A stretch of 64,000 nucleotides of DNA, from assembly GCA_023133595.1 (NCBI GenBank), contig JAGLWF010000005.1, positions 29,640 to 93,639 on the forward strand, written 5' to 3'. Positions 1 through 29,247 of this stretch are shown here, piece by piece. This DNA is from Nanobdellota archaeon (lineage in GTDB: Archaea > Nanobdellota > Nanobdellia > Woesearchaeales > WJKV01). The notes beneath the pieces are model-generated. The model did not search any database. It worked only from the letters and a program-made list of their open reading frames with translations, and was not told the origin of the DNA. Positions within the stretch are counted from its first letter, which is position 1. Every line of letters begins with the position of its first letter. Both the position numbers and the translations under genes were made by a program.

Positions 1-3000
1 CCGCTTGTTTCCATACGGCACAAGTGTATCGCTTGCACTTATCACCCCGTCACCATCAACATCGTGGTACAATGTCATGTTAAGTTCGTATCTTCCAGCA
101 GGATATTCCTCCTGCGCACTAGTAGCATCACGAGATATTTTTTGCTTGATTGGTTTTCCTAATGAACTTCCTTTTACATCACCAGCTATTAATATAGGTA
201 TTTCATCCGATGAAACAGCTTCGATTGTATAACTGATGGTTCCAACTTTGAATGAAGCGCTGTCTGCTGCTTCATTTTTACAATCTACAGTATACCCGCT
301 CGAAGTGCATTTTATTTTTTTGTTCACAACATCTGCATGCTGAAGTTCCATGAATGTGATCGCACGTTTCACACCAGTAAGATTCTGCGGTGCAATAAGT
401 TCAGCAGTGAAAGTTTTTGTCTCGCCTGCTTCTATATAGATCAGCTCCCTGAATCCTAGACGAGAGATTTGTATCTTATCCCCTTCCCAGACAAGAACTT
501 CTGCTGGCCCGCCAACAGCTTCTCCGAATTGCAGTAGTTTTGCAACATGGATTCCTCGCGGATCCATTGGATTGACTTTGAATTTTTCCAATATTTTTCT
601 GTCATTCTTATTTGTCTCAACAACATTGTTTGGTTTCTTAAGATTGTAAGCAAGATATAATTCTGGAACAGCGCCTGTTCCTTGAATCTCTTCAAGCATC
701 GGAGAGACAGCACTGATCAATGAACGTGCAAGCACATTGTTTCCAGGATAATACGAAGATACTGCTGGCGTCAATCGTGTCCCTTTGAACTCGATTGCCT
801 GCAGACCGCCTGCGATTGTCTCACAGATAATACCTGGAGGTACAAGCTGGAAGTGACACTGTGCAAGGAATGGTGATTTTCTTATGATCTGTTCTTCTTT
901 GACTTTTCTCTTCACTTCGTCACCGACTTGGTATGTAAGATCAAGCACAGCCAGGTTTGCCCAGTACTTTGCATGCTCATCGGTATAGAACAAATTCTTT
1001 TCCAGACTCTGATCAGAATCAACAAAAATGCCTTCTTCGTATATCAAGGTTGGAGCGCCTGAAGGGCAGTATTCGCCGCCAGCCTTGCTCTTGTCACATA
1101 CTATTCTCAGATTTCCAGAGACCCTCTGTCCGCCTGATAAGATTCCTAGTGTCAGATAATAATTGATTGCTGCTTCTCCTGTGAACGGGTCCCATGCTGC
1201 GAATCTTGATTCTGGAATCATTGGTCCGATGACAGGTGCAACTGCAACACGTGTTGCCTGCTGAAACACATTCCTTAAGTCAGACCAGTCCTGGGTGATC
1301 GCACCGATACAAGCTTTATGCACTAACTGCATTGGTGTCAGACCATACTGATTCTGGATGAGTGCGCTGTATCTTGCCTTTAATCTATTATTCACTTCCT
1401 GGAAATTTCCCCTGAAGACAGAACCTTCTCCACTGTCAAGAGAACCAGATATTCCTGTTCCAATAATCTTTTTAATCGCCCATGTCACAAGGTCACAGAC
1501 AAACTGCGCAAACAATCTTTCACAGTAACCTCCGCGCACTTCACCGATCATCGCCTGCTGCAAACATTTTTTCATTCCCTGGGTTATTCTTAAGAAGTTT
1601 GAAAGATGCCCTCGCACACCAGATACGCATCCGCATCTTAGTGATATGAAAATATCATCATAAGGATTTACCTGTCCATCATCATTCACACTGTCAGCAT
1701 TGTCAGGGAAACATTTTGTCTCGTGGAAACCAGGAGGTCCTTCTGAATAACAGCCGACACTTGCAGACTGTGCAGATGCTGCATTATATTCTGCCTGTGT
1801 CATCGTGGTGCACGCATAACGTACAGTGCCAGCTTCGTATAATTGCGTACCAGTGCCGGTTCCTCTCTTGAATAATAACGGACGTTTTGAAGTATTGACA
1901 GATCTTATCTCAATCGCATTCTGTCCAGGAGGGCATACTGGCTGTCCACCTATCACTGCTTTTTCTCTTGATACATATCTATATTGTGCTGACATATCTG
2001 CTTCACGCGATTCAAATGTCACAGAACCTTCGATTTTTGCAATTGGTTTTTCTTTCTTGATGTCAGCTGCATTGAAATAAGATTCTTTTTCTTCGTCATA
2101 GATAAATCTCTCTCCGCGCTTGTCTGTTACAATTTTGTTCATATTCGCACAGTCAGGAGGGATTGTCGGACACCATACCCTATCACAGATCATGAATGTT
2201 CGTTTCATATTAGCAGGAGATGCGCCTCCGCCAAGATAGGACAGTAAAGTAGAACCAACACAACCCGCTGTCAGAGCAAGTGTTGCTTCTTCTGCAAACT
2301 TTGTCGCATCTTCAAGGAATTCAATCCAGTCATCCAGAAGCTCAAGCGTATCATTGATCATCTCAGGTGTCAGGAACTTTGTATAATCAAAAGGAGTTTC
2401 CAATCCGACTGCGTGCTGGATAAAGATAGGTTCATTCATCGACGCTTGCCCCAACTGATAGGATACCATTGTTCTTAGTGAGAAATCAATCTGCATCCCT
2501 GTTCCAGTATTTCCGATCTCACCTTCTCCAAGATCATTCTTAACGTCTTTAAGGCCTTGTTTTATTGGCAGGACACGAAGTTTTGTCATGACAAACAATT
2601 TATTCTCATCTTCATTATAGAATGTCTTTGTCTCTTCTACTTTTATATATTTATTATCAAACTTATTCTGGTCAAGAGTTGCAGTAGCCTGAATATTTTT
2701 CAATGACTCTGTGGTCGGACCAGTATAATACAGATCATAGAGGACAGAAACAGGAACTCCTGTTGACTGCGGTGCCATCAGATTGCTGCTGTAGACAGTG
2801 TTTGGTATTGTCTGTATTCTTCCAGGCTTCCACATCATAGAGCCTGGTTCGAACTGTATTGTACGTTCTTCTGTATATTCATTTCCAGCTTCGTCAAACA
2901 CAACAAATAATATCCTGTTAGGAGACACTGAAAGCAGTTTCTGCTCCATCTGCGTAGCTCCAGGTGTTAACGGAGTGTACGTTTGTGCCAGAGCAATCTG

Positions 3001-4200
3001 CGTGCTGAACTCAGAATCTTCTCCACTATTGATCTCTTTTGCACGGCCAACAATCGCACCACCAACTCCAATTTCAAATTCAGTCATATACTCGTGTACA
3101 CCTTGCGCACGAATCTCCTGTATTTGTATAGTATTATTATTTCCAACATTAAAGATTTGTATCCTGCACTTAGGTTCTGTTGTGTTTCCAGCAAGAGTCA
3201 CAATCGAGAAATGCTGGTTCTCAGTAAAGATCATAGTATCAAGGTTTAGTCTACATGGAGTATTGTCGACTTTTATCTCAAATGTATGCGTTGCAATGTT
3301 TCCAGCAACATCTGTTGCTTCGATTGTAAGATTATGCTCGCCAGAACCAACATCAACTATTGCATCAAACTCTTTGTCTGTGACTTCAATATCAATTGCA
3401 GGATTATCATCAACAACGGCTCTTAATGTTGCTTCTTCACTAAGTGAACCAATGATCGGAATCACAGAACTGTTTCTTACTTCCTGGATCTCTGAAAGAA
3501 AAATTCTTGGCGCGGTCACGTCAATGACAATTGTGCGCTGTTCTTCCAGAATATTTCCAGAAGGATCAGTGAATCGTATTGTGACCTCATTATATCCTAG
3601 AACTCCTTTGAAGACTGTTTCATACAATTTAACAGTCGCAGAAAAGAGGCCATTTCCATCAGCAACAACAGAGAAACCGCCGGTTTCCAGTATCTGTGCC
3701 GGGAACCTGTCACTGTTGATAAAGATGCGGACAGTTGCACCTGGTTCTGTTATACCTGTTATTGTCAATGTATCTGTTTTGATCTTCGGAGGGACATCAC
3801 CCAAGGTTTCTCCTGTTTCTATTGATGTGTTTATCACAGTCGGTTCAACAACAATATCCTGTCTTGTGACAAAGGTCAATCCAGATCTTACATCATCCTC
3901 GTTATCATTTGCAGATTCTATCTGCAGATCATAGACAGCACTTTGGTTCAGCCCAGTTAATACTATCTCGTGCTCTGTGAGCAGAGCAGAATCCTCTTCA
4001 ATATTATTTAGATTATTAATACCATATTTCACTGTGCTGTTCGCAGCATCGTCTGTATCCCACTTCACTGTTGCGCTCGTTCCAGTGATATCAACAACTT
4101 GCGGATTTGATATCTGTAATGCATACGCACTTTGTATAGTTATTCCTAGCATTAGTACTATCAAAAACAATGTCAATGTCCATCTTTTGTTTTTATTCAT
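1..4200 (-). CDS. Giant secreted surface protein, partial. The N-terminus is in the window and the ORF runs off the left edge at >=1400 aa. Signal peptide MNKNKRWTLTLFLIVLMLGITIQSAYA, then an Fn3/Ig-like domain, a Cys-rich module and a C-terminal Ca-binding DVDGDGVISASD motif.
   Basis: Manual reverse-complement translation from ATG at 4200-4198, which overlaps the TGA of the upstream gene (ATGA). Reading frame checked open at 4200-4000, 1680-1561 and 120-1. No competing minus-strand ORFs in the ORF track. The plus-strand 378-aa ORF is low-complexity antisense. Confidence 0.7.
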   Translation of the reverse strand, partial: MNKNKRWTLTLFLIVLMLGITIQSAYALQISNPQVVDITGTSATVKWDTDDAANSTVKYGINNLNNIEEDSALLTEHEIVLTGLNQSAVYDLQIESANDNEDDVRSGLTFVTRQDIVVEPTVINTSIETGETLGDVPPKIKTDTLTITGITEPGATVRIFINSDRFPAQILETGGFSVVADGNGLFSATVKLYETVFKGVLGYNEVTIRFTDPSGNILEEQRTIVIDVTAPRIFLSEIQEVRNSSVIPIIGSLSEEATLRAVVDDNPAIDIEVTDKEFDAIVDVGSGEHNLTIEATDVAGNIATHTFEIKVDNTPCRLNLDTMIFTENQHFSIVTLAGNTTEPKCRIQIFNVGNNNTIQIQEIRAQGVHEYMTEFEIGVGGAIVGRAKEINSGEDSEFSTQIALAQTYTPLTPGATQMEQKLLSVSPNRILFVVFDEAGNEYTEERTIQFEPGSMMWKPGRIQTIPNTVYSSNLMAPQSTGVPVSVLYDLYYTGPTTESLKNIQATATLDQNKFDNKYIKVEETKTFYNEDENKLFVMTKLRVLPIKQGLKDVKNDLGEGEIGNTGTGMQIDFSLRTMVSYQLGQASMNEPIFIQHAVGLETPFDYTKFLTPEMINDTLELLDDWIEFLEDATKFAEEATLALTAGCVGSTLLSYLGGGASPANMKRTFMICDRVWCPTIPPDCANMNKIVTDKRGERFIYDEEKESYFNAADIKKEKPIAKIEGSVTFESREADMSAQYRYVSREKAVIGGQPVCPPGQNAIEIRSVNTSKRPLLFKRGTGTGTQLYEAGTVRYACTTMTQAEYNAASAQSASVGCYSEGPPGFHETKCFPDNADSVNDDGQVNPYDDIFISLRCGCVSGVRGHLSNFLRITQGMKKCLQQAMIGEVRGGYCERLFAQFVCDLVTWAIKKIIGTGISGSLDSGEGSVFRGNFQEVNNRLKARYSALIQNQYGLTPMQLVHKACIGAITQDWSDLRNVFQQATRVAVAPVIGPMIPESRFAAWDPFTGEAAINYYLTLGILSGGQRVSGNLRIVCDKSKAGGEYCPSGAPTLIYEEGIFVDSDQSLEKNLFYTDEHAKYWANLAVLDLTYQVGDEVKRKVKEEQIIRKSPFLAQCHFQLVPPGIICETIAGGLQAIEFKGTRLTPAVSSYYPGNNVLARSLISAVSPMLEEIQGTGAVPELYLAYNLKKPNNVVETNKNDRKILEKFKVNPMDPRGIHVAKLLQFGEAVGGPAEVLVWEGDKIQISRLGFRELIYIEAGETKTFTAELIAPQNLTGVKRAITFMELQHADVVNKKIKCTSSGYTVDCKNEAADSASFKVGTISYTIEAVSSDEIPILIAGDVKGSSLGKPIKQKISRDATSAQEEYPAGRYELNMTLYHDVDGDGVISASDTLVPYGNKR

Positions 4201-6176
4201 CTTATCACAGGAGCGTAGTTCTCACTCTTTGGTATGACCGTATTCTGCCAGAACCGTGCAAACCCTGACATATCTTCTGGCATTATTGGTGATGCAATTG
4301 CATAGAATCGTAATTCATTCGCAGTTGTCAGCTGATTTCTTGTGATCTGCCAGTCCGGGAAGTAAAGACCTGCAAAAGGCATGTCATCTTTCATAACTTT
4401 CACGTCAACTGTATATGTTGCATCATCATAAACCAGTTCAAATGGATTAGCTTTTGTGAAATCAGTCTCAGGGAGGAATGCTGCATCATCATAATCATCA
4501 CTTGCAACTGAAATATAAGCACGTTCATCTTCTTCTAATTCCCTGATCTGCATTGTTCCTTCTGTAAAGTCTAGTATGTAGAGTGAAACAGGAAGTTCTT
4601 TCAAAGGCACCAACTTAACAGGCGGGATCTGTGCAATCGGGGATTCGATCGTGACTTGGCTTACTGATTCCTGATAACCATCCTTGTTCACAACAAGGAA
4701 ACCATTCACACACTCAGGGAATGATGTCTCAAGCATTGGTTCAGAACCAACTATCATCACACCTTCAAAACTCGGGAATTCTGTATCTCCAAGGTCGCAC
4801 GAGAACTGCACGCATTCATATCTTACATTGGCATTGTCAAGGAACTCAGAAGTTACTTTATCCTGAACATAGATCACACGTTTGTAGAGCCTGTTTGCAC
4901 AATACTCTTCGCTTGAAACACTATATTCATATTCTGCAAGCTTGAAAGGACTTATGTATCTTTTTGCTGAATTCTTCTCTAGAATGACAGGAGTTGCAAA
5001 TTGGAATATCAAGCCAGATTCATCCTGCAGCTGAAACATTACAGGAAATTCAATATCATATCTATGATGATATACTTTCACACACGATCCTATTAATGGG
5101 ATTGCGAGATCAAAACCTTTTACAACATCTCCATCACTAGGCTCAACATCAAGATTCATTCCAAATGTTCTGTCGTATAAAACATTGATCGCAACATCTG
5201 GATAATTTCCAACGCCAGTATCTAGAGTATAGAATTCATCATAATAGTCAAGATAATTGCTTTTTACAGTACGATAACTTTTACAAACGCCAAATTCATC
5301 TTCTGCCTGGCAGATCTCTTGTACTATTTCTGGATTCTCTTCAAACCTTTGGTTCTTTATTGAATCATCAAATGAAAAATACCTGAAATTATATTTTACA
5401 AGCTGCTGCAGAGCAGGGATAATGTCTAACTGTATGCTCCATCTCTCTCCTTCTCCGCACCTGAAATCATAACCATCCAATGGGATGTGCGGGCTATCGT
5501 CTGCACCGTCAGCAACTGCAATAATATCCATTGTCGCTTCTTCTAAGAAAGCATTCTCATTCTCGTACTCCATGATAGATTTTGCAAACTGATATAGTTC
5601 TCCAAATCGTGTTGGCATTGCTTTTCTAAATGCACTTACATCAACAGTATTTTCGCCAATCGATATCCGCAGCGGATAATCAAGCTGGACAGAGATATCA
5701 TTTTTATGAATATCCACATCAACATTCAACACGCCTATCTCTTCTATTTTCATCTGTGGAAATTCTGCAAATTCATTGATACAATCAATAATATCTTTTT
5801 TGACATACTCTGCAAGTTCATTCTCAATATCTGACTGCCGCGGTACTAAAGATTTGCCATTATACCACCACATTGGAACTTTAAGTGCAGACGGTGGCGG
5901 TGGAAGATAACCAGGTCTTCTTGGATCTCCAAACAATAATTGATCAGGCAGTTCAATATACCCTCCCTGCATTGCTGCCAACGCAACTCCTTCTGCCAAT
6001 GTATCCTGTGTGCATTCTTCAATAAACATACGCACTGATTTAGTCTCTGGGAAACGTATCTCTGTGTATTTCTGCGAGATAGAGCCTCTATAATAGATTA
6101 AGATAAAACCAAGTATCACTATTATGATTCCTATTATTATGAATAAAGTGACTTGTCCTCTTTTTGTTTTTTTCAT
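4197..6176 (-). CDS. Large protein (659 aa) with a class III, prepilin/archaellin-like N-terminal signal: MKKTKRGQVTLFIIIGIIIVILGFIL. Paralog 1 of a three-member family.
   Basis: ORF track. N-terminus fits the [KR]G-Q-hydrophobic class III motif. A post-TM motif FIEEC...QGGYIELPD...LKVPMWWY is shared with the 15288 and 30083 proteins. Confidence 0.7.
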   Translation of the reverse strand: MKKTKRGQVTLFIIIGIIIVILGFILIYYRGSISQKYTEIRFPETKSVRMFIEECTQDTLAEGVALAAMQGGYIELPDQLLFGDPRRPGYLPPPPSALKVPMWWYNGKSLVPRQSDIENELAEYVKKDIIDCINEFAEFPQMKIEEIGVLNVDVDIHKNDISVQLDYPLRISIGENTVDVSAFRKAMPTRFGELYQFAKSIMEYENENAFLEEATMDIIAVADGADDSPHIPLDGYDFRCGEGERWSIQLDIIPALQQLVKYNFRYFSFDDSIKNQRFEENPEIVQEICQAEDEFGVCKSYRTVKSNYLDYYDEFYTLDTGVGNYPDVAINVLYDRTFGMNLDVEPSDGDVVKGFDLAIPLIGSCVKVYHHRYDIEFPVMFQLQDESGLIFQFATPVILEKNSAKRYISPFKLAEYEYSVSSEEYCANRLYKRVIYVQDKVTSEFLDNANVRYECVQFSCDLGDTEFPSFEGVMIVGSEPMLETSFPECVNGFLVVNKDGYQESVSQVTIESPIAQIPPVKLVPLKELPVSLYILDFTEGTMQIRELEEDERAYISVASDDYDDAAFLPETDFTKANPFELVYDDATYTVDVKVMKDDMPFAGLYFPDWQITRNQLTTANELRFYAIASPIMPEDMSGFARFWQNTVIPKSENYAPVIR

Positions 6177-6177
6177 C

Positions 6178-6858
6178 TTAGTTCTTTATTGTCAAATACA
6201 GGTAATACCTGCTCCACGCAGAGTATAATAAAAATACTAGCAACAATATTGATGCAAATACTGCTGAACCAAGAGTAAATGTCCAGCTAGATATTGCAAC
6301 AGCAACAAAAAATATGACTGCCATCAACAGGTATGCTAGCAATACCCTCCACTGAAAAAATGTGGAAAATACATTGAATATTGTCTCTTTAGGTTTCTTT
6401 ATCATGTTTGTCCTAGCAATCGAAGTGAACATGAGATAGAGGAGCCAGAAAATGAATAATAATGGACTTCGCCACACATCTTTGATTGCTTGGATTATGA
6501 AAACAAAGATTATGAACCAAGGAATAAGCCAGATCAATGAAAACTTGAACCATGTTTTCATGTCCTGTGTTCTCCCGACAGTGTACTTATATACAAGACG
6601 CTTGAAGATTGTAAGGTTCACTACTTGCAAAACAATTGCAACTGCTGATAGTAAGATAAAAGATATTATGTACCACGTCCCTGAATTGACTGTCAATGGG
6701 TATGCGTCTGTGATCCTGCCAAAATACATGTAGTAGAATGCTACGATCGCAAAAAATATTAACAGGCAGATCAGATCAAAGAGCATTGCATGGAATAATC
6801 TAACATTAAACGTTTTGAATGATTCTATAAACATAAACCCCTTTTTTTTTACTGCCAT
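6178..6858 (-). CDS. Polytopic membrane protein, about 6 TM helices, unknown function.
   Basis: ORF track. Hydrophobic helices throughout. Lies 1 nt from the flanking gene inside the operon. Confidence 0.55.
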   Translation of the reverse strand: MAVKKKGFMFIESFKTFNVRLFHAMLFDLICLLIFFAIVAFYYMYFGRITDAYPLTVNSGTWYIISFILLSAVAIVLQVVNLTIFKRLVYKYTVGRTQDMKTWFKFSLIWLIPWFIIFVFIIQAIKDVWRSPLLFIFWLLYLMFTSIARTNMIKKPKETIFNVFSTFFQWRVLLAYLLMAVIFFVAVAISSWTFTLGSAVFASILLLVFLLYSAWSRYYLYLTIKN

Positions 6859-6864
6859 TTTACC

Positions 6865-10953: not shown

Positions 10954-11702
10954 TCTATCTCAAACTCGAATGTTTTTTCATCTTTGACAAATGGAGTGAT
11001 ATCCGTCGCTCGGATCTTCAGGCAGTATGTTCCTCGCAAGTCAAACATTGACACTGGTTCTCTGAAGGTACGGGTGATTGTTTGATACTCACTGTCTTCG
11101 ACCTCGATGGTTGCAGCAGTGCTGTATTTGTTGTTAAACCAAGTAATCTTCTTCCCTAACGGATCTCGCAGGTCAATATTCTCTAAAAACCCGATAAAAT
11201 GCCGTCCATCTTCAAAATCAACAGTCATTGTATCCAACTCGTGGACTATCTCAATGTGATCTCCTACTTTTGTGAACTTGAAATTTCTGATATTGAATGC
11301 AGCACCCATATCCTTGAATCCTTGCTCAATCTCGTCTTCAAGCGCTCGCATTTCTTTTTCATCCTCTGGAATGATTTCCATTAGTTCAGGTTCTTCTCCT
11401 ATGATTGTCTCTAAAAATTTTGCTTCTCTTATCTTTGCCAATTCTTCCTCGGTAATATCCTTCTGTGTGAAGTTTAATGCTAATGCCAAGACAATAATAA
11501 GTATGACAATGACAATCACACATAACCAAAACCGTTTATGTGCAAACGTGCGGGTATGTGCTTCGTGCACAGGCGGCAGCCGTTTATACCGCGGTGGTTG
11601 CGGAGCTTTTCTCGACGGCATTCTTGGACCTGGAGTTAGCTTTAACAATTCTTTTCTTCTCCTTTCCAGTTCTCTTTTGTATCTATCAAACTCGTCTGCC
11701 AT
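10950..11702 (-). CDS. Single-pass type II membrane protein (250 aa): basic, Pro-rich cytoplasmic N-terminus, one TM helix, acidic extracellular domain.
   Basis: ORF track. TM segment FWLCVIVIVILIIVLALALNF. Translationally coupled on both sides. Confidence 0.55.
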   Translation of the reverse strand: MADEFDRYKRELERRRKELLKLTPGPRMPSRKAPQPPRYKRLPPVHEAHTRTFAHKRFWLCVIVIVILIIVLALALNFTQKDITEEELAKIREAKFLETIIGEEPELMEIIPEDEKEMRALEDEIEQGFKDMGAAFNIRNFKFTKVGDHIEIVHELDTMTVDFEDGRHFIGFLENIDLRDPLGKKITWFNNKYSTAATIEVEDSEYQTITRTFREPVSMFDLRGTYCLKIRATDITPFVKDEKTFEFEIE

Positions 11703-11703
11703 T

Positions 11704-14700
11704 TTAACTTGTTAAATTTCCAGCACCTGCAGGCACTGTTGTTGAAGTGTCCTCTGCAAGAGGAGCAGCTTCACCCGCTTCTCTTTCCCACTTCTCTAAT
11801 TCATCAAATGCGTCTTTGCATTGATCACTATCTTTATCTGTGAAACTTTTGAAATCAACATCAAACTTGATCGCATTCTCGACAAATTCGTCCCACGACC
11901 ATGCAAGCATTGCAGCATCAAACACACCGCACGCAAGTACCCATGCATTCTTCTCAACATTCAATAGTTTAGCATCAACCTGGTTGCTCTCTGTACATTG
12001 TTCAATGCTCTCAGCAGTATTGAACTGCGTTATCTTTTTTCCGCCAGCATAAGCTTCCTGCTGCATCTTGACCTGGTTATCAAAATTAGTGCACAACGCA
12101 TCTCGCGAAGCAGCAACTATTCTTCCTGGCAATTCTTTAATTATATCACGCGACATGCCTGCGATCTGTTTTGCCAGCATAAAGCCAGGGAATAACTGCA
12201 TCACAGGACCCCAGAAGAACAGACATTCATTCTCTGCATGCGCAATGTCACAAGCAGCAGTGCTGAAGCCTGCTTTTGCATTGTCAGTGATACATCGTGC
12301 ATGGATACACTGCAATTGCCTGTACTTGTTCAGGTTATAGACAACACCCGGAAGGCATAAGCAATCAACAGCAACAATATAATTATCCATTGGATTCAAC
12401 CTTGTCTCGAAATTAATCTCTTTCAGATAAGAAGTGTCGATCTGTCCTACATCTGCCATTGACACATCAGCAGCACCAGTAACATCAGTGACAGCAAGAC
12501 CAAACAGACTTCCAAGGCTGCCCAGGATACCTCCATCATCTTTCTTTCCAGTGCTAGGTTTCTTCTCTGGAGGCGGTTCTGCAACAGCTTCTGTCGGCTG
12601 TGTTGTTCTTGCTTCCATCCGGGTTTCATCCTCTGATTTCATCTGCGATGGAACTGGGGCTCCAGGTTCTCCGACTCCAACTTTTCCAAGGAAGCTTGCG
12701 ACAGGCTTATCAAAAGCTTTTGGTATGCTCTGTATCCCAGTGATCCCAAATCCTTGGCTGCACTGGTTGCATAATATGAATGCACAGACTCTTCTTACAA
12801 ATCCGCCAATATCATCTTCTTCTTTGCCCAAAGATTTGCCGCCGAATAACGCGTCTGTGAATTCAAACTTATCCGGTTTGATACCGCGCGCTTTTGCAGC
12901 TTTTTCATATGCTTCTTTTGTGTAGAAATAATCTTTATCATTCGGCCAGATTGTTTCTTTCAGGACACGCAGATAACAATCAAGTGTCAGGAAACCCTGC
13001 CATAATTCTTCACCAGCACCAGTAGAAGTCCATTCAACAATCATTGAAGCTGTATAGACAATAGGTTTCATATCCTGTACAACAGTATATATCCTCGAGA
13101 TCTCTTCTCCTATCTTACATATCTTTCTTAGTGTGTCTAGCCAACCTTCGATCTTTGTGACATACTCAAAGAAGTTTGTATTCACGCGCTTCTCAATATC
13201 GTGGAGTTTCCTGATTACATTGTCTCCTGGATCTCCGATTGGAAGATTGTACAATTCAATTGATGCTGTCACATTATCCATCTCAGGGTTAAGGAATACT
13301 GTGTTTCCTCTTGCAATAAGAGAATATATTGTGCAGTTGAATTCTATATTCTCAAGCTTTGACGTAGCTTCATCCAATAATATTTCGAACACGAGAAGGG
13401 AATCATCCATTTCTTTTCCAATGATGTAAGGATTTTGAGTATCCGTGCCTGCATACAATACAGTATCAAGACCAGTGCACTGAGGAGACTTATCAATAAC
13501 CTCAACCATATCAGAATAATCAAAGTGCAGTGGAACAAAGACTTTTGTTGGAATCTTTGTCGAGATCCTTCGATCCAATTTCTGCGGGATCACACTTCCA
13601 ACTGTTATTGCAACTTCATTCGGCACTGTTGTGATATCAGAACTGTAGACAACAACAGGATAAGAAAACACACCGTCATTTCCAGCAAGATCAAAGACAG
13701 TGAAGTCAACATTGCCCTGGGTATAACTTGTGACCAGGCCAGAGACTTCAAACTCGCAGATAAAATCATCACCAGACATTGCACATGTCCCATTGATAGG
13801 ATCTATTTGAGTTGATATCGCGCTCACATCTGCAATCGCATTCCTCACTCCATTTATTTCTGTTCCAGTAACATAAAATCTTAATGGCTCTCCAACGCCT
13901 GCGTTTGGTGCAAGTGCTGATTGTGTTACATTCGCAATCACAGGGTCGGTAAGGTCAACTTCGAACGACTGGCTTTTTGTTGCCAGCTGTCCGAACCTGT
14001 CGCGCACATTGACCACAACTGTCTTGCTTCCTTCTGGTCCAGCAGCATCAAGATTGTACCAGTAACATTTGCTCTCATTCATATCGCACAGGTCTGCGAC
14101 TTGTCCAGAACTATAGACTGGATTTATTGCCCGCAGGTCAGCAAGAGTCTGCGAAGTCTCAAATCCAACACCAGCATCTGCAATCTTAGCAATTAAAGTA
14201 TTATCAGTGCTTCCAAAGTAATTTCCATTCTCGGTCTCAATAGCACTGATAACAGGTTCTTCTGAATCAACACTGACAGATATTGTGAATGGACTATTCA
14301 ATACATTTCCAGCAGTATCAGTTGCAGTCACTGTTCCGCTAAAACCAGTTGTCTGCGCAGTCACAGTCGGCACTACACTCCATCTGCATCGATGCACACC
14401 GCCAGTTTCTGTGCAAGTGCCAGGTGCATTTGCTCCTCCACCAAATGCAGTGATATCTGCCCGTACATCATCAAGCGCAACATTCTCAGATATGTCAATC
14501 TCAAGCATGAATGACATTGAACCAACAGTGACACTTGCCACAGGAACATTGTTCAATGTCAGTCTGGCATCCACTAACTGCGGCTCATCCACATCAATTG
14601 TGAGTGCCGAGGATGTCTGTGCCAATTGCAGATGACCCAAACGATCGAATACCCGCGCATAGTATACATAGTCACCTGACGAAGTGGGTGCTTCGAGAAC

Positions 14701-15297
14701 AATTGTATCGTCCAATTCGCATTGGTCAATACCTTGTATTGTATAGGTTTCTGATGCAACTATGTTTAGGAAATTCGCATCGTCTGAGATTTCAACACCT
14801 GCAATTCCTGCACAATGACCAGAATCTCCGATTTCATCATCTGCAACAATATGTGCAACAAGATCACTGCCAGATGTTCTGTTTACTGCAAATGAAGTTA
14901 CTGTCGGTGCACTGCCATCAACAACATAAGCTTCTGATTGAGTGACACCACTGTAGGAAATGTGATAATATTCTGTTCCTTCCTCTAACGGAAGGACAAG
15001 AGATAAAGTACATAAACTGTTGCTTCCCTCTGGGACACATGATTCAAAAGAGATATTATGGAACTTGACAGCAGTAGGATCTACTCCTGCCTGCGCGATC
15101 TTGATATCAATATAGACATTTGTGTCTCTTGCATCAATCACTCTATGGATGTCATCGCTTCCATAGATGCTGACTTCTGTTATCAGGCCTGCAAAAGTAG
15201 AACTTCCCTGTGCAAATGCAAAGCTTGCATAGAACGGCAAAGTTATGATTAAGAAAATCATCAACATGCATCTACCATATCCTTTTTTCATTTCCAT
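11704..15297 (-). CDS. Giant secreted protein (1197 aa) with repeated Ig-like beta domains, a Cys-rich module and the C-terminal tail ...STTVPAGAGNLTS.
   Basis: ORF track. Signal peptide MEMKKGYGRCMLMIFLIITLPFYASFAFA. The Cys-rich CLCLPGVVYNL...C module aligns with CGCVSGVRGHL...C in the 1..4200 protein. Overlaps the 15288 gene by 10 nt. Confidence 0.7.
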   Translation of the reverse strand: MEMKKGYGRCMLMIFLIITLPFYASFAFAQGSSTFAGLITEVSIYGSDDIHRVIDARDTNVYIDIKIAQAGVDPTAVKFHNISFESCVPEGSNSLCTLSLVLPLEEGTEYYHISYSGVTQSEAYVVDGSAPTVTSFAVNRTSGSDLVAHIVADDEIGDSGHCAGIAGVEISDDANFLNIVASETYTIQGIDQCELDDTIVLEAPTSSGDYVYYARVFDRLGHLQLAQTSSALTIDVDEPQLVDARLTLNNVPVASVTVGSMSFMLEIDISENVALDDVRADITAFGGGANAPGTCTETGGVHRCRWSVVPTVTAQTTGFSGTVTATDTAGNVLNSPFTISVSVDSEEPVISAIETENGNYFGSTDNTLIAKIADAGVGFETSQTLADLRAINPVYSSGQVADLCDMNESKCYWYNLDAAGPEGSKTVVVNVRDRFGQLATKSQSFEVDLTDPVIANVTQSALAPNAGVGEPLRFYVTGTEINGVRNAIADVSAISTQIDPINGTCAMSGDDFICEFEVSGLVTSYTQGNVDFTVFDLAGNDGVFSYPVVVYSSDITTVPNEVAITVGSVIPQKLDRRISTKIPTKVFVPLHFDYSDMVEVIDKSPQCTGLDTVLYAGTDTQNPYIIGKEMDDSLLVFEILLDEATSKLENIEFNCTIYSLIARGNTVFLNPEMDNVTASIELYNLPIGDPGDNVIRKLHDIEKRVNTNFFEYVTKIEGWLDTLRKICKIGEEISRIYTVVQDMKPIVYTASMIVEWTSTGAGEELWQGFLTLDCYLRVLKETIWPNDKDYFYTKEAYEKAAKARGIKPDKFEFTDALFGGKSLGKEEDDIGGFVRRVCAFILCNQCSQGFGITGIQSIPKAFDKPVASFLGKVGVGEPGAPVPSQMKSEDETRMEARTTQPTEAVAEPPPEKKPSTGKKDDGGILGSLGSLFGLAVTDVTGAADVSMADVGQIDTSYLKEINFETRLNPMDNYIVAVDCLCLPGVVYNLNKYRQLQCIHARCITDNAKAGFSTAACDIAHAENECLFFWGPVMQLFPGFMLAKQIAGMSRDIIKELPGRIVAASRDALCTNFDNQVKMQQEAYAGGKKITQFNTAESIEQCTESNQVDAKLLNVEKNAWVLACGVFDAAMLAWSWDEFVENAIKFDVDFKSFTDKDSDQCKDAFDELEKWEREAGEAAPLAEDTSTTVPAGAGNLTS

Positions 15298-17447
15298 TGT
15301 GGCTGTATCAGGCTGCCTTTCTTCTTCGACATCTCGTCAATATTTCCAAGACGCGCAAGCTCTTCGTGATTTGTCGGTTTCTTTGATTTTAGCACAAAGA
15401 ACAATAATTCATTTTTCTGGTCAAGCTCTGCTTTCTCAACATGCCAGTTATTGTTCAGCCCAGCATTAAGCGCAGCTCCTCCCAACGGCGCGGGTTTTAC
15501 TTCAACTTCTTCTAGTGTTACATATTCGTCTCCAAACTTCTTTGTTGCTTCTGGAATAACAACTCCAGTATTATCAAAATATCGCGCGTCAATAGTATAA
15601 TCTCCAGGCACAAGTTCCAGATCATTCACTTTAGTGTCTTCATCAAAGATCATGGTTGTGCTGAATGGTTCCTCCCACGGATCTTCTGAAACTTTTGCAA
15701 CAGTGACATAGACAAATGCATCTTCTAAATCATCATGCTGCTGCAATAACTGAAGATATTGCTGATAGTTCACACTTCCATAATCAAACCTGTCAAATTG
15801 CTCGACCATTTCTGGGGATCTGACCTGGATGTTTGTTTTCTTTGTCACAATCTTTGGAAGTTCAGCATTAAAGGTATAGACTTGTCCGTATTTTGTATTC
15901 AATGGGAAATTATGATTAAAGTATCCTTCTTTTGACAGTTTCAACACACCACCATCGCAGATAGGGAATTTGCCGACATATTCTCCACCAGCATCAGTGC
16001 TTCCAATGTAGACACTATCCTCTCCACAGTAGAATCTTACCTGCACATCGCTCACTATCTTGTTGCTGTCATCTTTTGTATTGATCGTGATATCACCAGA
16101 CAATCTTTGGTTTGGATGACCAAATAAATTTGCTCCACCAACACCAAGCTCGACAACATAAGGAACACGCAGTTCTCCTGCAAGGAGTGGTTCATTGTTT
16201 CTCACATTAGCCTCCATCGCAAACATCAATGAGTAACCATCTCCATTGAATGCATACGGGTCCCGCACTTCAACAACAACAGGATACGATAAGTCGTAAT
16301 AGAAACGGTACGACTGCGTGAAAATATCAATTATCTCCTGGAATGATCCACTGTGCTCCTCTGGCCTGATCAATTCTCCTGAACTAGGAGTGATGTCAAA
16401 ATGCATTGGCCAGTTCAGGTAGAACATGTTCACATCTAGTTCTTCATAATCCTTTTCAGGCGGAAGAACATTGAAAACAAAACCATAATGCACTCCTTGC
16501 CTGATATCAAAACCAGGCCTGTCATCTTCTGGATACGGATAGAAATTATGAGTTCTCGGAACAGTTATCATGTTGACATACGTTGTCAGTATCTGTTTTA
16601 TCAATTGTTCAACATTAAACTTGACCCACATGACTTTCTGCATTCCCATGTCAGCCTCTGCTATCGGAGGAAGCCCTTCCTTCTCAACACGACCGTACAA
16701 TGAGATCAGGTTCATTGTGTTATATTCTAGGAAACCACCTTCTGCCTGTGCATTGACAATCTCAACACCCATGTTAAACATCTGTCGCAGATTTACTTGA
16801 TGGTTTATGTAGAAATCTTTGAAATCATAGGATAATTCTCCTCGTGTTACTCGCAGTGGATAAGAAAGCGTGACCCGGACGTCGTTTGCAGTTATTGCTG
16901 TCTTTGAACCGATTGATCCCAACTCTTCAATCTCATAACCTTCCTCTCTGAATGCTGTCATTGCCAGTAAACATTCCCTTACATTGGTCTCGACATAACG
17001 ATCAATCATATCCTGCATCTGGACAATTGTCGGTGCTTTGCCAGAGAATAAACAATCTGTGCATCTATTGCTGCTTTTCAGGTAATGCCAGTACGGAACT
17101 TTCAATCCTCCTGGCGTGAACTCAACACCATCAGACTCAGTCGGATCATACTGGAAATCAAAAACAGTTCCTCCAGTGAGCTCTGGATCATCTAATGAAA
17201 TCCATCCGCCCTGCCGGCCCATAAGTTCCAGTGCTTCTTTGCTGACACGCCTTCCGCACTCTTCAACAAACAAAGAAATTGGCTGCAGTCGGACAGGACC
17301 AACAATCACTCTTTCTTTAGCTTCTTCTGTTATCTTTGAAGGTGCAGTTGCAATGAAATATATGACAATAGCTGCGACAATTAAGAGAATTAAACCTATA
17401 ATTATGTAAATAGTCACTTGTCCCTTCTTGTCATTGCTGTTAAGCAT
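15288..17447 (-). CDS. Large protein (about 719 aa) with a class III prepilin-like signal: MLNSNDKKGQVTIYIIIGLILLIVAAIV. Paralog 2.
   Basis: ORF track gives 15288..17492. The internal Met at 17447 is preferred because TATA boxes at 17512-17554 would place the transcription start inside the longer extension. Shares FVEEC...QGGWISLDD...LKVPYWHY with paralog 1. Confidence 0.65.
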   Translation of the reverse strand: MLNSNDKKGQVTIYIIIGLILLIVAAIVIYFIATAPSKITEEAKERVIVGPVRLQPISLFVEECGRRVSKEALELMGRQGGWISLDDPELTGGTVFDFQYDPTESDGVEFTPGGLKVPYWHYLKSSNRCTDCLFSGKAPTIVQMQDMIDRYVETNVRECLLAMTAFREEGYEIEELGSIGSKTAITANDVRVTLSYPLRVTRGELSYDFKDFYINHQVNLRQMFNMGVEIVNAQAEGGFLEYNTMNLISLYGRVEKEGLPPIAEADMGMQKVMWVKFNVEQLIKQILTTYVNMITVPRTHNFYPYPEDDRPGFDIRQGVHYGFVFNVLPPEKDYEELDVNMFYLNWPMHFDITPSSGELIRPEEHSGSFQEIIDIFTQSYRFYYDLSYPVVVEVRDPYAFNGDGYSLMFAMEANVRNNEPLLAGELRVPYVVELGVGGANLFGHPNQRLSGDITINTKDDSNKIVSDVQVRFYCGEDSVYIGSTDAGGEYVGKFPICDGGVLKLSKEGYFNHNFPLNTKYGQVYTFNAELPKIVTKKTNIQVRSPEMVEQFDRFDYGSVNYQQYLQLLQQHDDLEDAFVYVTVAKVSEDPWEEPFSTTMIFDEDTKVNDLELVPGDYTIDARYFDNTGVVIPEATKKFGDEYVTLEEVEVKPAPLGGAALNAGLNNNWHVEKAELDQKNELLFFVLKSKKPTNHEELARLGNIDEMSKKKGSLIQPQWK

Positions 17448-17511
17448 AGTAGAAGGACTAAAGTGTTCTCTAGCACCCCTTCTCATGTTCACCTTTTTGG
17501 AGGATTCAGCC

Positions 17512-17554
17512 CTTTATAAATATATCTATTATTTTATATATGAGATTTATAAAT
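17512..17554 (-). promoter_or_regulatory. Cluster of archaeal TATA-box-like elements (TTTATAAATATAT, TTTTATATAT, TTTATAAAT), likely promoter of the 7-gene surface-protein operon.
   Basis: Seen in sequence immediately upstream (minus strand) of the first operon gene. It sits in the only sizable intergenic gap of the cluster. Confidence 0.45.
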
Positions 17555-17565
17555 GGAAGTTAGGA

Positions 17566-28134: not shown

Positions 28135-29247
28135 ATGGATGCGAAAAAGTTAGTCCAAAAATATCTCACTCTTGCAGATATCCAGATAAATGGAAAGAGA
28201 CTGTGGGATATCCAGGTCCACAACCCCAAATTATATACCAGAGTCTTGGCAGGAGGTTCTCTTGCTCTAGGTGAATCTTATATGGACGGATGGTGGGACT
28301 GCAAAGCGCTTGATGAATTCTTCTACAGGATCCTGAAAAGCAGGCTGGACAAGAAAGTCAAGGATTGGAAACAGCTTATAGCCAGTGTAATCAAAGCAAA
28401 GATAGTGAACCTGCAAAGCAGGACAAAAGCTTATGAAATCGGAAAGAGGCATTATGACATTGGCAACGACTTATACAAGAACATGCTGGACAAGCGGATG
28501 GTCTACAGCTGTGGATATTGGAAGAATGCAAAGATTCTTGATAAAGCACAAGAGGTAAAATTAGATTTGATATGCAAAAAACTAGGACTAAAACCAGGAA
28601 TGAAAATCTTAGATATTGGCTGTGGCTGGGGCAGTCTGGCAAAATATGCTGCAGAAAAATATAAAGTGAAAGTAGTAGGTATCACTATTTCTAGAGAACA
28701 AGCGAAATTAGCTCGTGAAATGTGCAAAGGACTTTCTGTCGAGATTCGGTTGCAGGATTATCGAAAATTAAGAGAAAAGTTTGATCGCATTGTCTCTGTC
28801 GGCATGTTCGAGCATGTCGGATATAAAAATTACAAGACATACATGGAAGTTGTCAGCCGTTGCCTGAAACCAAATGGTTTGTTCTTGCTGCACACAATCG
28901 CAGGAAACACTTCTGCAAAAACAACAGATCCTTGGATCAGCAAATACATTTTTCCAAATTCAATGCTTCCTTCTGCAAAACAGATCACAACAGCATATGA
29001 AGGATTATTCATACTCGAAGACTGGCACAGTTTTGGAATAGATTATGATAAAACTTTAATGGCTTGGTACAAGAATTTCACAAAGACCTGGAGCAAGATA
29101 AAAAAAGATTATGACACTCGTTTCTATCGCATGTGGGAATATTATCTGCTTGCTTGCGCAGGAACATTCAGGTCTGGAGATAACCAACTCTGGCAGATTG
29201 TACTTTCAAAGGGTGGGGTAAAAAACGGTTATAAAAGTATACGTTAA
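28135..29247 (+). CDS. cfa: Cyclopropane-fatty-acyl-phospholipid synthase family SAM methyltransferase.
   Basis: N-terminal LAGGSLALGESYMDGWWDC, SAM motif ILDIGCGWGSLAKYAAEKY, and DRIVSVGMFEHVG. Confidence 0.8.
   Translation: MDAKKLVQKYLTLADIQINGKRLWDIQVHNPKLYTRVLAGGSLALGESYMDGWWDCKALDEFFYRILKSRLDKKVKDWKQLIASVIKAKIVNLQSRTKAYEIGKRHYDIGNDLYKNMLDKRMVYSCGYWKNAKILDKAQEVKLDLICKKLGLKPGMKILDIGCGWGSLAKYAAEKYKVKVVGITISREQAKLAREMCKGLSVEIRLQDYRKLREKFDRIVSVGMFEHVGYKNYKTYMEVVSRCLKPNGLFLLHTIAGNTSAKTTDPWISKYIFPNSMLPSAKQITTAYEGLFILEDWHSFGIDYDKTLMAWYKNFTKTWSKIKKDYDTRFYRMWEYYLLACAGTFRSGDNQLWQIVLSKGGVKNGYKSIR

What the first reader, a model, noticed from the sequence alone, without database searches (positions are those of the whole stretch)
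1..17560. Seven-gene overlapping operon: giant secreted proteins, prepilin-like proteins and membrane proteins
All seven genes are on the minus strand with ATGA or 10-nt overlaps, or gaps of <=6 nt, and sit behind one TATA-rich promoter region. Products are three giant signal-peptide proteins: >=1400 aa with an Fn3-like domain, 1362 aa with a 500-aa A/K/E coiled coil, and 1197 aa with Ig-like repeats. They are interleaved with two 660-720 aa proteins carrying archaellin/type-IV-pilin-like class III signal peptides, a 6-TM protein and a type II single-pass protein. No known pilus ATPase or platform genes are present and no characterised system matches this composition. It looks like a dedicated cell-surface, S-layer-stalk or host-attachment apparatus of a small-genome archaeon.
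Basis: partly seen in the sequence, partly recalled or inferred. Interest (0 to 1): 0.9.

Follow-up and report, generated by a model that had tools for sequence, protein, structure and literature searches.

The report
Pilin-like anchor plus giant surface protein
A tiny DPANN archaeon carries a tightly packed seven-gene operon built from two copies of a two-gene unit found in this lineage (Woese-/Pacearchaeota-type MAGs): a pilin-like membrane protein followed by a giant secreted cysteine-rich protein, which most likely forms the cell-surface gear it uses to hold on to, and in related species digest, other cells.

Summary
Seven intact minus-strand genes (A-G, window 1..17492) are packed with overlaps or gaps of 6 nt or less, behind a 73-nt AT-rich gap with TATA-like boxes. 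The window comes from a Nanoarchaeota (Woesearchaeota-type) MAG.

The seven genes are not the conserved unit. The conserved unit is a pair:
- a 600-740 aa protein with an invariant K/R-G-Q-V-T class-III-like N-terminus (A, F);
- immediately after it, usually with an ATGA overlap, a 1000-2600 aa Sec-secreted protein with a shared Cys-rich core (B, G).

This order held for 74 of 77 genes in 80 genomes. The core family has 1178 clusters in public data. C and D occur only in close relatives, and E in about 15 loci.

None of the seven proteins reaches a curated cut-off in Pfam, NCBIfam or PHROGs beyond Ig-like domains, and none has a PDB relative. In other species the giant protein carries interchangeable peptidoglycan hydrolase domains (SLT, phage lysozyme, M23, M15, amidase, glucosaminidase). 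In some it is followed by secreted SLT, nuclease or lipase genes.

Best reading: a surface host-contact and attack complex. The G family was already noted in the literature as "large murein transglycosylase proteins"; I found no report of the pilin-like partner or the duplicated operon. No function has been tested.

The parts
15288..17492 (-). Gene A: pilin-like protein, paralogue of F. 734 aa from GTG; likely start is ATG 17486 or 17447, giving the leader MLNSNDKKG|QVTIYIIIG.
   Evidence: ORF. 23% identity to F over the full length, E 1e-23. F-family HMM E 2e-140. Single N-terminal hydrophobic segment at 30-48. No Pfam or NCBIfam hit.
11704..15297 (-). Gene B: 1197-aa Sec-secreted protein with 28 Cys, Ig-like N-terminal half and a Cys-rich C-terminal core. 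Paralogous partner of G.
   Evidence: ORF. Signal-like segment at 10-28 only. Big_13 E 1.4e-4. Core matches the G core by hhalign at 90% probability, E 1.5e-6. Orthologues follow A-type genes in L005, L007, L008, L013, L023 and L040.
11788..12468 (-). Cys-rich core region of B (residues 944-1170).
   Evidence: Alignment A3; hhalign against the G core; alignment shown.
10950..11702 (-). Gene C: 250-aa single-pass membrane protein, with a basic N-terminus inside, a transmembrane segment at 58-76, and about 170 aa outside.
   Evidence: ORF; hydropathy. The only homologue found is in L005. No family hit.
6865..10953 (-). Gene D: 1362-aa Sec-secreted protein with an A/K/E-rich helical low-complexity middle (about 160-700) and a Cys-containing C-terminal domain.
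   Evidence: ORF; composition and periodicity. Only L005 has a homologue, of the C-terminal domain. No Pfam, PDB or PHROG hit.
6178..6858 (-). Gene E: 226-aa polytopic membrane protein with 4-6 transmembrane segments.
   Evidence: ORF; hydropathy. Homologues lie immediately upstream of F-type genes in about 15 loci. No conserved Asp pair or GxGD motif, so it is not an A24 prepilin peptidase.
4197..6176 (-). Gene F: 659-aa pilin-like protein with leader MKKTKRG|QVTLFIIIG, alpha/beta N-terminal domains and three C-terminal beta-sandwich domains.
1..4200 (-). Gene G: first 1400 of 1553 codons. Giant Sec-secreted protein with 24 Cys: fn3/Ig-like N-terminus, conserved central core, beta-rich C-terminus. 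The gene runs 459 nt beyond the window start.
   Evidence: Translation. Full length on the parent contig. Big_13, Glucodextran_B and fn3. Family members. AF2 model of residues 500-1400 has pLDDT 60.
1021..1740 (-). Cys-rich conserved core of G (residues 821-1060), the signature of the giant-protein family.
   Evidence: Alignments A2 and A5. 1178 clusters in 1.84 billion representatives, 906 at E<=1e-30.
17493..17565 (-). AT-rich intergenic region with TATA-box-like elements (TTTATAAA twice). Presumed promoter of the operon.
   Evidence: Sequence read directly. Consensus resemblance only; no transcript data.
30083..31777 (-). Unlinked third paralogue of A/F (564 aa, MKRG|QVTVFIVIG). It shares the N-terminal domain only and is not followed by a giant gene.
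   Evidence: F-HMM E 3e-26; BLASTP E 4e-7 over residues 77-169; motif scan; no Pfam hit.

Best explanation
The operon encodes a cell-surface complex made of two paralogous 'anchor plus giant' pairs, A-B and F-G.

Shown:
- A and F carry a strictly conserved class-III-type N-terminus: a short basic leader ending in Gly, then Gln at +1, then a hydrophobic helix.
- B, D and G have ordinary Sec signals and no membrane anchor.
- The pilin-like gene and the giant gene are nearly always adjacent, usually with an ATGA overlap.
- The giants share a Cys-rich core. Around it, Ig/fn3 arrays and enzyme domains are swapped between species.

Inferred:
- A and F are cut at G|Q by a prepilin-type peptidase encoded elsewhere in the genome.
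- They then either stay in the membrane by their N-terminal helix, or are built into a short type-IV-filament-like fibre as a tip or minor subunit.
- Each holds its giant partner, probably 1:1, through the giant's conserved disulfide-rich core.
- The variable outer Ig/fn3 modules of the giant bind another cell.
- In many relatives, peptidoglycan hydrolase domains on the giant, or secreted SLT, nuclease and lipase genes next to it, open or digest that cell's envelope.
- In this organism no hydrolase domain is present, so the complex would act mainly in attachment. D would be an elongated helical spacer. C and E would be membrane-embedded base or assembly factors.
For: - Pairing: 74 of 77 A/F-family genes with at least 3.5 kb of downstream sequence are followed by a G- or B-type giant; the modal overlap is 4 nt.
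- Paralogy: A~F. The B core matches the G core at hhalign probability 90%, E 1.5e-6.
- Class-III-like N-terminus: conserved in at least 90% of 69 sequences that are only about 25% identical overall. EppA-processed Methanococcus pilins have 5-13 aa leaders ending in Gly with Gln at +1 (PMC3875500).
- Extracellular location: conserved Cys in F; 24-28 Cys and 8-11 N-x-S/T sequons in G and B; no second membrane segment.
- F model: pLDDT 90, with a long N-terminal helix, a four-stranded sheet and three C-terminal CnaB/transthyretin-like sandwiches like those of adhesin and pilin stalks and SlaB.
- Link to attack on bacterial walls: among 77 G-type giants, SLT 9 times, Phage_lysozyme2 2, Glucosaminidase 2, Peptidase_M15_4 2, M23 1, Amidase_3 1, DPBB_1 1, DUF2272 2 (function unknown), plus transglutaminase-like, trypsin and ankyrin domains. 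SLT positions relative to the core vary.
- Neighbouring genes: separate SLT, Exo_endo_phos+GDSL-lipase and DUF2272 proteins lie just downstream of G in other loci.
- Genomic setting: core-genome context (MetRS, proteasome, CPSF, ribosomal proteins, SRP54, TFIIB) and no PHROG hit argue against a mobile element.
- Literature: large murein-transglycosylase proteins of Pace- and Woesearchaeota have been proposed to bind bacterial walls (PMC8204110; PMC9723730; PMC12352652).
Against: - No experiment, transcript or proteome was examined.
- The A-B and F-G interaction is inferred from gene order only.
- The window's own giants carry no hydrolase domain, so the 'attack' component is borrowed from relatives.
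- No archaeal pilin HMM matches A or F, and no type IV pilin appears among the structural neighbours.
- No prepilin peptidase, assembly ATPase or platform gene lies in the window ORFs scanned, and none turned up among the families with at least 4 loci and median length of at least 250 aa within +/-10 kb of the 80 loci, only some of which were annotated.
- The G core model is poor (pLDDT 60, pTM 0.32), so its fold and binding role are unknown.
- A near-universal, housekeeping-embedded gene pair would also fit a structural envelope role.
Confidence: 0.5

Rival explanations
1. A two-component S-layer or envelope scaffold. The giant protein (G, and B) would form the outer lattice. The pilin-like protein (F, A) would be its membrane anchor, functionally like SlaA/SlaB of Sulfolobales. 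D would be a tetrabrachion-like stalk.
For: - The gene pair is widespread (at least 423 matching stretches in the species-representative scan) and sits among housekeeping genes, as expected of a core envelope component.
- The adjacent large-plus-anchor gene arrangement resembles slaA-slaB.
- G and B carry N-glycosylation sequons.
- I did not look for any other S-layer candidate in these genomes.
Against: - The SlaB similarity is limited to generic tandem beta-sandwiches, which adhesins and Gram-positive pilins match equally well.
- The topology is reversed: N-terminal anchor and no coiled coil in F.
- There is no sequence relation to any solved S-layer protein.
- Giant lengths range from 1000 to 3800 aa, with enzyme domains inserted at varying positions. 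That is hard to reconcile with a regular lattice.
- 24-28 Cys per protein is unusual for S-layer proteins (general knowledge).
- D's coiled coil is not supported.
Confidence: 0.2
2. An extracellular enzyme and binding scaffold for scavenging, rather than for attachment to a living host. The giant would be a cell-tethered multi-domain platform, cellulosome-like, that captures and degrades cell-wall debris, nucleic acids and lipids from dead cells. The pilin-like protein would serve only as the tether.
For: - Hydrolase domains of many kinds occur on or next to the giants: peptidoglycan hydrolases, trypsin, EEP nuclease, GDSL lipase.
- Cohesin/scaffoldin structures appear among F's beta-sandwich neighbours.
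- These archaea are described as having very limited metabolic capacities (PMC8204110).
Against: - Most giants surveyed, including both in this window, have no recognisable enzyme domain.
- The conserved part is the Cys-rich core and the pairing, not a catalytic module.
- Phage-tail lysozyme and SLT domains are typical of devices that locally breach walls of living cells (general knowledge).
- This reading overlaps with the best explanation and differs mainly in the target.
Confidence: 0.15
3. The cluster is an accident of annotation: unrelated or decaying genes, or cargo of a virus or mobile element, that happen to lie together.
For: All products are annotated 'hypothetical', and C and D have almost no homologues.
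Against: - The ORFs, up to 1553 codons long, are uninterrupted in three assemblies (window).
- The order A-B-C-D-E-F-G is retained in a relative only 36-40% identical for A, F and G and 31% or less for B-E (L005).
- F-G adjacency holds in 74 of 77 cases.
- The flanks are conserved housekeeping genes.
- There are no PHROG hits.
Confidence: 0.02

Closest known systems
[quoted passage not shown] 2021, PMC8204110; also Vigneron et al. 2022, PMC9723730)
   Same: Giant proteins (up to 3000 aa in the paper, up to 3779 aa here), secreted, seen here only in Woese-, Pace- and Nanoarchaeota-labelled MAGs. SLT occurs in 9 of 77 G-type giants surveyed. They were proposed to bind or degrade bacterial walls.
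   Different: - Identity with fam00969 is inferred, not checked against the paper's sequences.
- The family signature found here is a Cys-rich core, not the SLT domain. SLT is one of eight or more interchangeable accessory domains.
- The window's G and B have none of them.
- The papers I could search do not mention the obligatory pilin-like partner gene or the duplicated operon.
Bacterial type IVa pilus tip complex: minor pilins (FimU-PilVWX) plus the large Sec-secreted non-pilin adhesin PilY1/PilC, encoded in one operon. Also modular pilins such as S. sanguinis PilB (PMC8179133).
   Same: A pilin-type N-terminus on one protein, and a large Sec-dependent non-pilin surface protein encoded next to it. 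The pilin-like protein carries extra C-terminal modules, as modular pilins do.
   Different: - G has no PilY1/PilC beta-propeller domain hit.
- A and F have no pilin HMM or pilin fold hit.
- No linked assembly ATPase or platform was found (neighbour survey).
- Whether any filament is made is unknown.
Sulfolobales S-layer pair SlaA/SlaB
   Same: A large outer protein and a smaller membrane-anchored partner with tandem beta-sandwiches, encoded side by side. SlaB is a structural neighbour of F.
   Different: No sequence homology; opposite anchor topology; Cys-rich; highly variable length; enzyme insertions. A lattice has not been shown.
Archaeal class III signal peptide proteins processed by EppA/PibD (Methanococcus Epd pilins with the DUF361 domain; PMC3875500)
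   Same: A short basic leader ending in Gly, Gln at +1, and a hydrophobic helix of about 20 residues.
   Different: - A and F are 10 times larger than structural pilins.
- They lack the +5 Glu of the Methanococcus pilins.
- No DUF361, Class_IIIsignal or Pilin_N HMM hit.
- Cleavage is untested.
Wall-breaching hydrolase modules of phage tail or tape-measure proteins (PMC1796659) and of monoderm conjugation systems
   Same: Very long proteins carrying SLT, M23 or phage-tail-lysozyme modules, used to open peptidoglycan locally. L070's G has Phage_lysozyme2 at E 9e-36.
   Different: No PHROG hit, chromosomal housekeeping context, and no tail or T4SS genes. The resemblance is functional only.

Membership tests
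Archaeal type IV pilin-like proteins (class III signal peptide) | A short positively charged leader ending in Gly/Ala, followed by a hydrophobic stretch of about 20 residues. Gln at +1 in EppA substrates. | tested here: met
   F has MKKTKRG|QVTLFIIIGIIIVILGFILI, A has ...KKG|QVTIYIIIGLILLIVAAIVIYFI, and the third paralogue has MKRG|QVTVFIVIG. G, Q, V, T and F are at least 90% conserved in 69 sequences. Criterion taken from PMC3875500.
Archaeal type IV pilin-like proteins (class III signal peptide) | A match to curated pilin or archaellin N-terminal models (Pfam Class_IIIsignal, Pilin_N, DUF361; NCBIfam arch_flag_Nterm). | tested here: not met
   No such hit at E<=0.1 for A or F.
Archaeal type IV pilin-like proteins (class III signal peptide) | The pilin fold: a long N-terminal helix packed on a four-stranded antiparallel sheet. 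| tested here: inconclusive
Archaeal type IV pilin-like proteins (class III signal peptide) | Processing by a prepilin peptidase, and assembly by a TFF ATPase and platform encoded in the genome. | not testable with these tools
   None of these appears among the 20 window ORFs scanned, and none was seen among the larger conserved neighbour families in 80 loci. The rest of the genome was not available. E is not an A24 peptidase.
Pace-/Woesearchaeal giant murein-transglycosylase proteins (fam00969) | A giant secreted protein restricted to Pacearchaeota and Woesearchaeota. | tested here: met
   G is 1553 aa with a Sec signal. Family members are 1000-3779 aa. All 80 genome loci come from Woese-, Pace- or Nanoarchaeota-type MAGs.
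Pace-/Woesearchaeal giant murein-transglycosylase proteins (fam00969) | Contains a murein lytic transglycosylase (SLT) domain. | tested here: not met
   Neither the window's G nor B has an SLT or any other hydrolase hit. SLT is present in 9 of 77 homologues. The window protein therefore belongs to the same core family but lacks the feature that named it.
SlaA/SlaB-type two-component S-layer | Sequence or whole-fold homology to SlaA or SlaB. | tested here: not met
SlaA/SlaB-type two-component S-layer | Forms a regular surface lattice. | not testable with these tools
   This needs microscopy.
T4P tip adhesin PilY1/PilC with minor pilins | The PilY1/PilC C-terminal beta-propeller domain in the large protein. 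| tested here: not met
   No such Pfam hit in G or B, nor among the families listed for 73 homologues.
T4P tip adhesin PilY1/PilC with minor pilins | The large non-pilin protein is encoded next to pilin-like genes. | tested here: met
Prepilin peptidase A24 (considered for gene E) | A polytopic protein of about 230 aa with two conserved catalytic Asp, one of them in a GxGD motif. | tested here: not met
   In an alignment of 16 E-family proteins, only one partly conserved acidic residue is seen and there is no GxGD motif. No Peptidase_A24 hit.

The most novel reading that the evidence does not exclude
The pilin-like/giant pair would be the long-sought host-contact organelle of Woesearchaeales and Pacearchaeales. 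It would be a fibre- or membrane-mounted 'harpoon', with a conserved Cys-rich core that docks on the pilin-like subunit and exchangeable outer modules that recognise the envelope of bacterial hosts and, through the peptidoglycan hydrolases, breach it. If so, much of this very abundant archaeal group lives as cross-domain episymbionts or predators of bacteria, and host range could be read from the giant's accessory domains.
Probability: 0.3. Interest if true: 0.85.

Novelty: new variant of a known kind. Interest (0 to 1): 0.62.

Why it matters
Woesearchaeales and Pacearchaeales are among the most widespread uncultivated archaea. Their hosts and their means of attachment are unknown.

This work turns a vague literature note ('large transglycosylase proteins') into a defined genetic module that can be searched for. 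The module has a sequence signature (K/R-G-Q-V-T pilin-like gene, ATGA overlap, giant gene with a Cys-rich core) and over a thousand family members. Its accessory domains repeatedly point at bacterial peptidoglycan.

That gives concrete targets for antibodies, cryo-ET, metaproteomics and complex prediction. It also offers a possible way to infer host type (wall chemistry) from sequence. The window's own operon, with two paralogous pairs and no hydrolase, is a useful contrast case for separating attachment from lysis.

Tried and rejected
- Pfam, NCBIfam and PHROGs on all seven proteins gave only weak Ig-like hits in G and B.
- PDB sequence searches with the F profile, D, B and the F N-terminus gave nothing meaningful.
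- The AF2 model of G residues 500-1400 came out at low confidence (pLDDT 60). Its Foldseek hits (transglutaminase beta-barrels, TM about 0.1) are uninformative.
- The word-indexed homology search with the G core profile returned only short fragments. The first exhaustive search failed on profile length and the second was lost. The third succeeded.
- Gene E as a prepilin peptidase: rejected.
- D as a continuous coiled coil: not supported.
- D/B similarity beyond the C-terminal tail: none.
- The shared TTVP(A/T)GAG tail as a conserved sorting signal: rejected, because it is absent from the L005 orthologues.
- A DUF87/HerA-like ATPase near F in L003 as part of the system: not conserved.
- Rfam found nothing in or next to the cluster.
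- Literature searches for the pairing found no report.

Full report
**What is in the sequence**

Window 1..17492 holds seven uninterrupted minus-strand ORFs:

| Gene | Coordinates | Length |
|---|---|---|
| A | 15288..17492 | 734 aa from GTG |
| B | 11704..15297 | 1197 aa |
| C | 10950..11702 | 250 aa |
| D | 6865..10953 | 1362 aa |
| E | 6178..6858 | 226 aa |
| F | 4197..6176 | 659 aa |
| G | 1..4200 | 1400 codons in the window |

The junctions are a 10-nt overlap (A/B), a 1-nt gap (B/C), ATGA (C/D), a 6-nt gap (D/E), a 1-nt gap (E/F) and ATGA (F/G). If B starts at its third codon, as one public gene call has it, A/B is also an ATGA overlap. G continues past the window start. On the parent contig it is 1553 aa and is followed by a ParA-like ATPase, a proteasome subunit and CPSF, so the cluster ends at G.

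Upstream, after a 73-nt AT-rich gap with two TTTATAAA-type boxes, lies methionyl-tRNA synthetase (my reading of the translation). ORFs of this length do not arise by chance in 40% GC DNA, and the same structure is present in two further assemblies from other archives. One transcript is a reasonable inference from the spacing, but it was not tested.

**Who it belongs to**

F and G are identical to NCBI proteins KAT43_02875 and KAT43_02870 of a 'Nanoarchaeota archaeon' MAG. The rest of the window is housekeeping: P-type ATPase, L11, tRNA-guanine transglycosylase, MutL, FtsZ, two periplasmic substrate-binding proteins, two tRNAs. No pilus ATPase, platform or prepilin peptidase was found among the ORFs scanned.

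**The products**

- *Hydropathy.* B, D and G have a single N-terminal Sec-like segment and no anchor. A and F have a short basic leader, then G-Q-V-T and a hydrophobic helix of about 20 residues. C has one internal membrane segment. E has four segments above threshold, six by eye.
- *Composition.* B and G have 28 and 24 Cys and 8 and 11 N-x-S/T sequons. A and F have no sequons.
- *Family searches.* Pfam, NCBIfam and PHROGs give only weak Ig-like or fn3 hits in G and B, and nothing for A, C, D, E or F.
- *Protein D.* Its middle is A/K/E-rich with 12 Pro and 18 Gly per 470 aa and only a weak heptad signal. I treat it as a helical low-complexity spacer, not a proven coiled coil.

**Internal paralogy**

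A and F align over their whole length (23% identity, E 1e-23). B and G share a Cys-rich, predicted helical motif of about 80-200 aa (BLASTP E 0.001; profile-profile probability 90%, E 1.5e-6; alignment). The operon is therefore two copies of one 'pilin-like gene then giant gene' module, with C, D and E lying between the two pairs.

A third, unlinked paralogue of the A/F N-terminal domain sits at 30083..31777.

**The conserved unit is the pair**

F has 73 clusters of homologues, all unannotated, and the named ones are from Woese-, Pace- or Nanoarchaeota. A scan of species-representative genomes found at least 423 relatives, and 80 loci were fetched.

- In those loci, 74 of 77 A/F-family genes with enough downstream sequence are followed directly by a 1002-2597 aa gene carrying the G or B core. 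The overlap is most often 4 nt.
- The full A-B-C-D-E-F-G order recurs in a relative that is 36-40% identical for A, F and G and 31% or less for B-E (L005).
- A more distant genome has MetRS, an M48 peptidase, A, B, two membrane proteins, F and G (L007).
- Pacearchaeota-type genomes show F-G alone among ribosomal, SRP54, GINS and TFIIB genes.
- E-type membrane proteins precede F in about 15 loci. C and D were found only in L005.
- An exhaustive profile search with the G core found 1178 clusters at 50% identity, 906 of them at E<=1e-30. Most of the best 150 are 1800-3800 aa, with the core near residues 1000-1600. The ten I looked up are 'hypothetical'.

**Structure**

The G model (residues 500-1400) is poor (pLDDT 60, pTM 0.32). 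It shows sandwiches, a long helical hairpin and a helical Cys-rich region, and its fold hits are uninformative.

**The class-III-like N-terminus**

G7, Q8, V9, T10 and F12 are at least 90% conserved across sequences that are only about 25% identical overall. That level of conservation points to a processing or assembly constraint. The pattern matches EppA-processed Methanococcus pilins, which have 5-13 aa leaders ending in Gly with Gln at +1 (PMC3875500). It lacks their +5 Glu, as Sulfolobus and Haloferax pilins also do.

Curated pilin HMMs do not match. Membership in the pilin class is therefore met at the motif level, not met at the HMM level, and inconclusive at the fold level. E is not the peptidase.

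**Functional clue from relatives**

I surveyed 77 G-type giants with Pfam. Domain occurrences were:

| Domain | Count |
|---|---|
| SLT | 9 |
| Phage_lysozyme2 (E down to 9e-36) | 2 |
| Glucosaminidase | 2 |
| Peptidase_M15_4 | 2 |
| Peptidase_M23 | 1 |
| Amidase_3 | 1 |
| DPBB_1 | 1 |
| DUF2272 | 2 |
| DUF1615 | 1 |

Transglutaminase-like, trypsin and ankyrin domains also occurred. The tool reports counts per family, so the number of distinct proteins with at least one hydrolase lies between about 10 and 21.

SLT lies on either side of the core. In other loci, separate genes just downstream of G encode SLT proteins, an Exo_endo_phos plus GDSL-lipase protein, and a DUF2272/FGE-sulfatase protein, often after a small single-pass protein.

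Archaea have no murein. Repeated, independent recruitment of different peptidoglycan hydrolases to this module therefore indicates that it meets bacterial cell walls. The window's own G and B carry none.

**Literature**

Castelle et al. 2021 describe a Pace-/Woesearchaeota-specific family (fam00969) of proteins up to 3000 aa with a murein lytic transglycosylase domain, and propose that it attaches to bacterial walls (PMC8204110). Vigneron et al. 2022 and a 2025 PLoS Biology paper make related points. This is very probably the G family, though I could not compare sequences. None of these papers mentions a pilin-like partner, and no searchable paper combines the relevant terms.

**Interpretation**

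Most likely (0.5), A and F are processed pilin-like subunits. They stay in the membrane or cap a short type-IV-like fibre, and each holds its giant partner through the conserved Cys-rich core. The giants project variable Ig/fn3 and, in relatives, lytic modules toward another cell. D, C and E are lineage-specific spacer and membrane parts.

Rivals:
- A SlaA/SlaB-like S-layer (0.2). It is favoured by the wide distribution (at least 423 matching stretches in species-representative genomes) and housekeeping context. It is disfavoured by the variable size, the enzyme insertions and the high Cys content.
- A tethered scavenging-enzyme scaffold (0.15).
- An annotation accident or mobile element (0.02). 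This is contradicted by the synteny and by the lack of viral hits.

**Verdict**

It is a duplicated, elaborated, hydrolase-free version of a widespread, uncharacterised two-gene surface module whose giant component has already been noticed. Within what I could search, the new elements are the obligatory pilin-like partner, the Cys-rich core as the true family signature, the modular exchange of wall-lytic domains, and the paralogous double-pair operon.

Noticed in passing
window 30083..31777 (-): A third protein with the same MKRG|QVT... N-terminus and N-terminal domain as A and F (564 aa). It is unlinked to any giant gene and overlaps the start of a D-aminoacyl-tRNA deacylase gene. Extra partial paralogues also occur in L044, L045, L055 and L069.
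   Followed up: partly
window 11704..11760 and 6865..6925 (-): B and D end in the same tail, TTVP(A/T)GAG followed by an N-x-T sequon. The DNA at the B/C and D/E junctions shares about 30 nt, and both downstream genes start ATGGCAG. The tail is absent from the L005 orthologues, so it is organism-specific. Its meaning is unknown; it could be a tag, a glycosylation site or a coupling element.
   Followed up: partly
L009, L014, L019, L021, L032, L033, L035, L043, L044, L046, L047, L048, L056: Thirteen of the 80 genome loci are titled 'uncultured Methanosarcinales archaeon'. For nine of the thirteen, proteins are 60-90% identical to those of contigs labelled Woesearchaeota or Nanoarchaeota, and all thirteen carry the same module, so at least those taxon labels are probably wrong.
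   Followed up: partly
L042:18262-21339, L050:9499-11943, L034:17962-21159, L048:18300-20705, L018:9030-9602: In other lineages the pair is followed by a small single-pass protein of about 190 aa and then by secreted multi-domain hydrolases: SLT; Exo_endo_phos nuclease plus two GDSL lipase domains; DUF2272 plus an FGE-sulfatase-like domain.
   Followed up: partly
window 4197..6176 and 15288..17492 versus 1..4200 and 11704..15297: The two pilin-like proteins have no N-x-S/T sequon at all in 659 and 734 residues. Their giant partners have 11 and 8.
   Followed up: no
L001:16639-16860 (just beyond the window start, downstream of G): A 220-nt stretch that looks non-coding and GC-richer by eye lies between G and the ParA-like gene. 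It has no Rfam match.
   Followed up: partly
L003:7161-8930: A DUF87 (HerA/VirB4-like) ATPase lies 1 kb upstream of F in one Nanoarchaeia genome. It is not conserved in the other loci.
   Followed up: partly
window 28135..29247 (+), 32034..32729 (+), 40644..41588 (-): Bacterial-type genes in this archaeal window: a cyclopropane-fatty-acyl-phospholipid synthase (CMAS, E 4e-95) and an undecaprenyl-diphosphate-synthase-family prenyltransferase. There is also a TSP3/EF-hand calcium-binding repeat protein.
   Followed up: no
window 17566..19722 and L007:1-133: Methionyl-tRNA synthetase sits just upstream of the cluster both here and in a relative only 26% identical in F. This suggests the chromosomal position of the cluster is old.
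   Followed up: no
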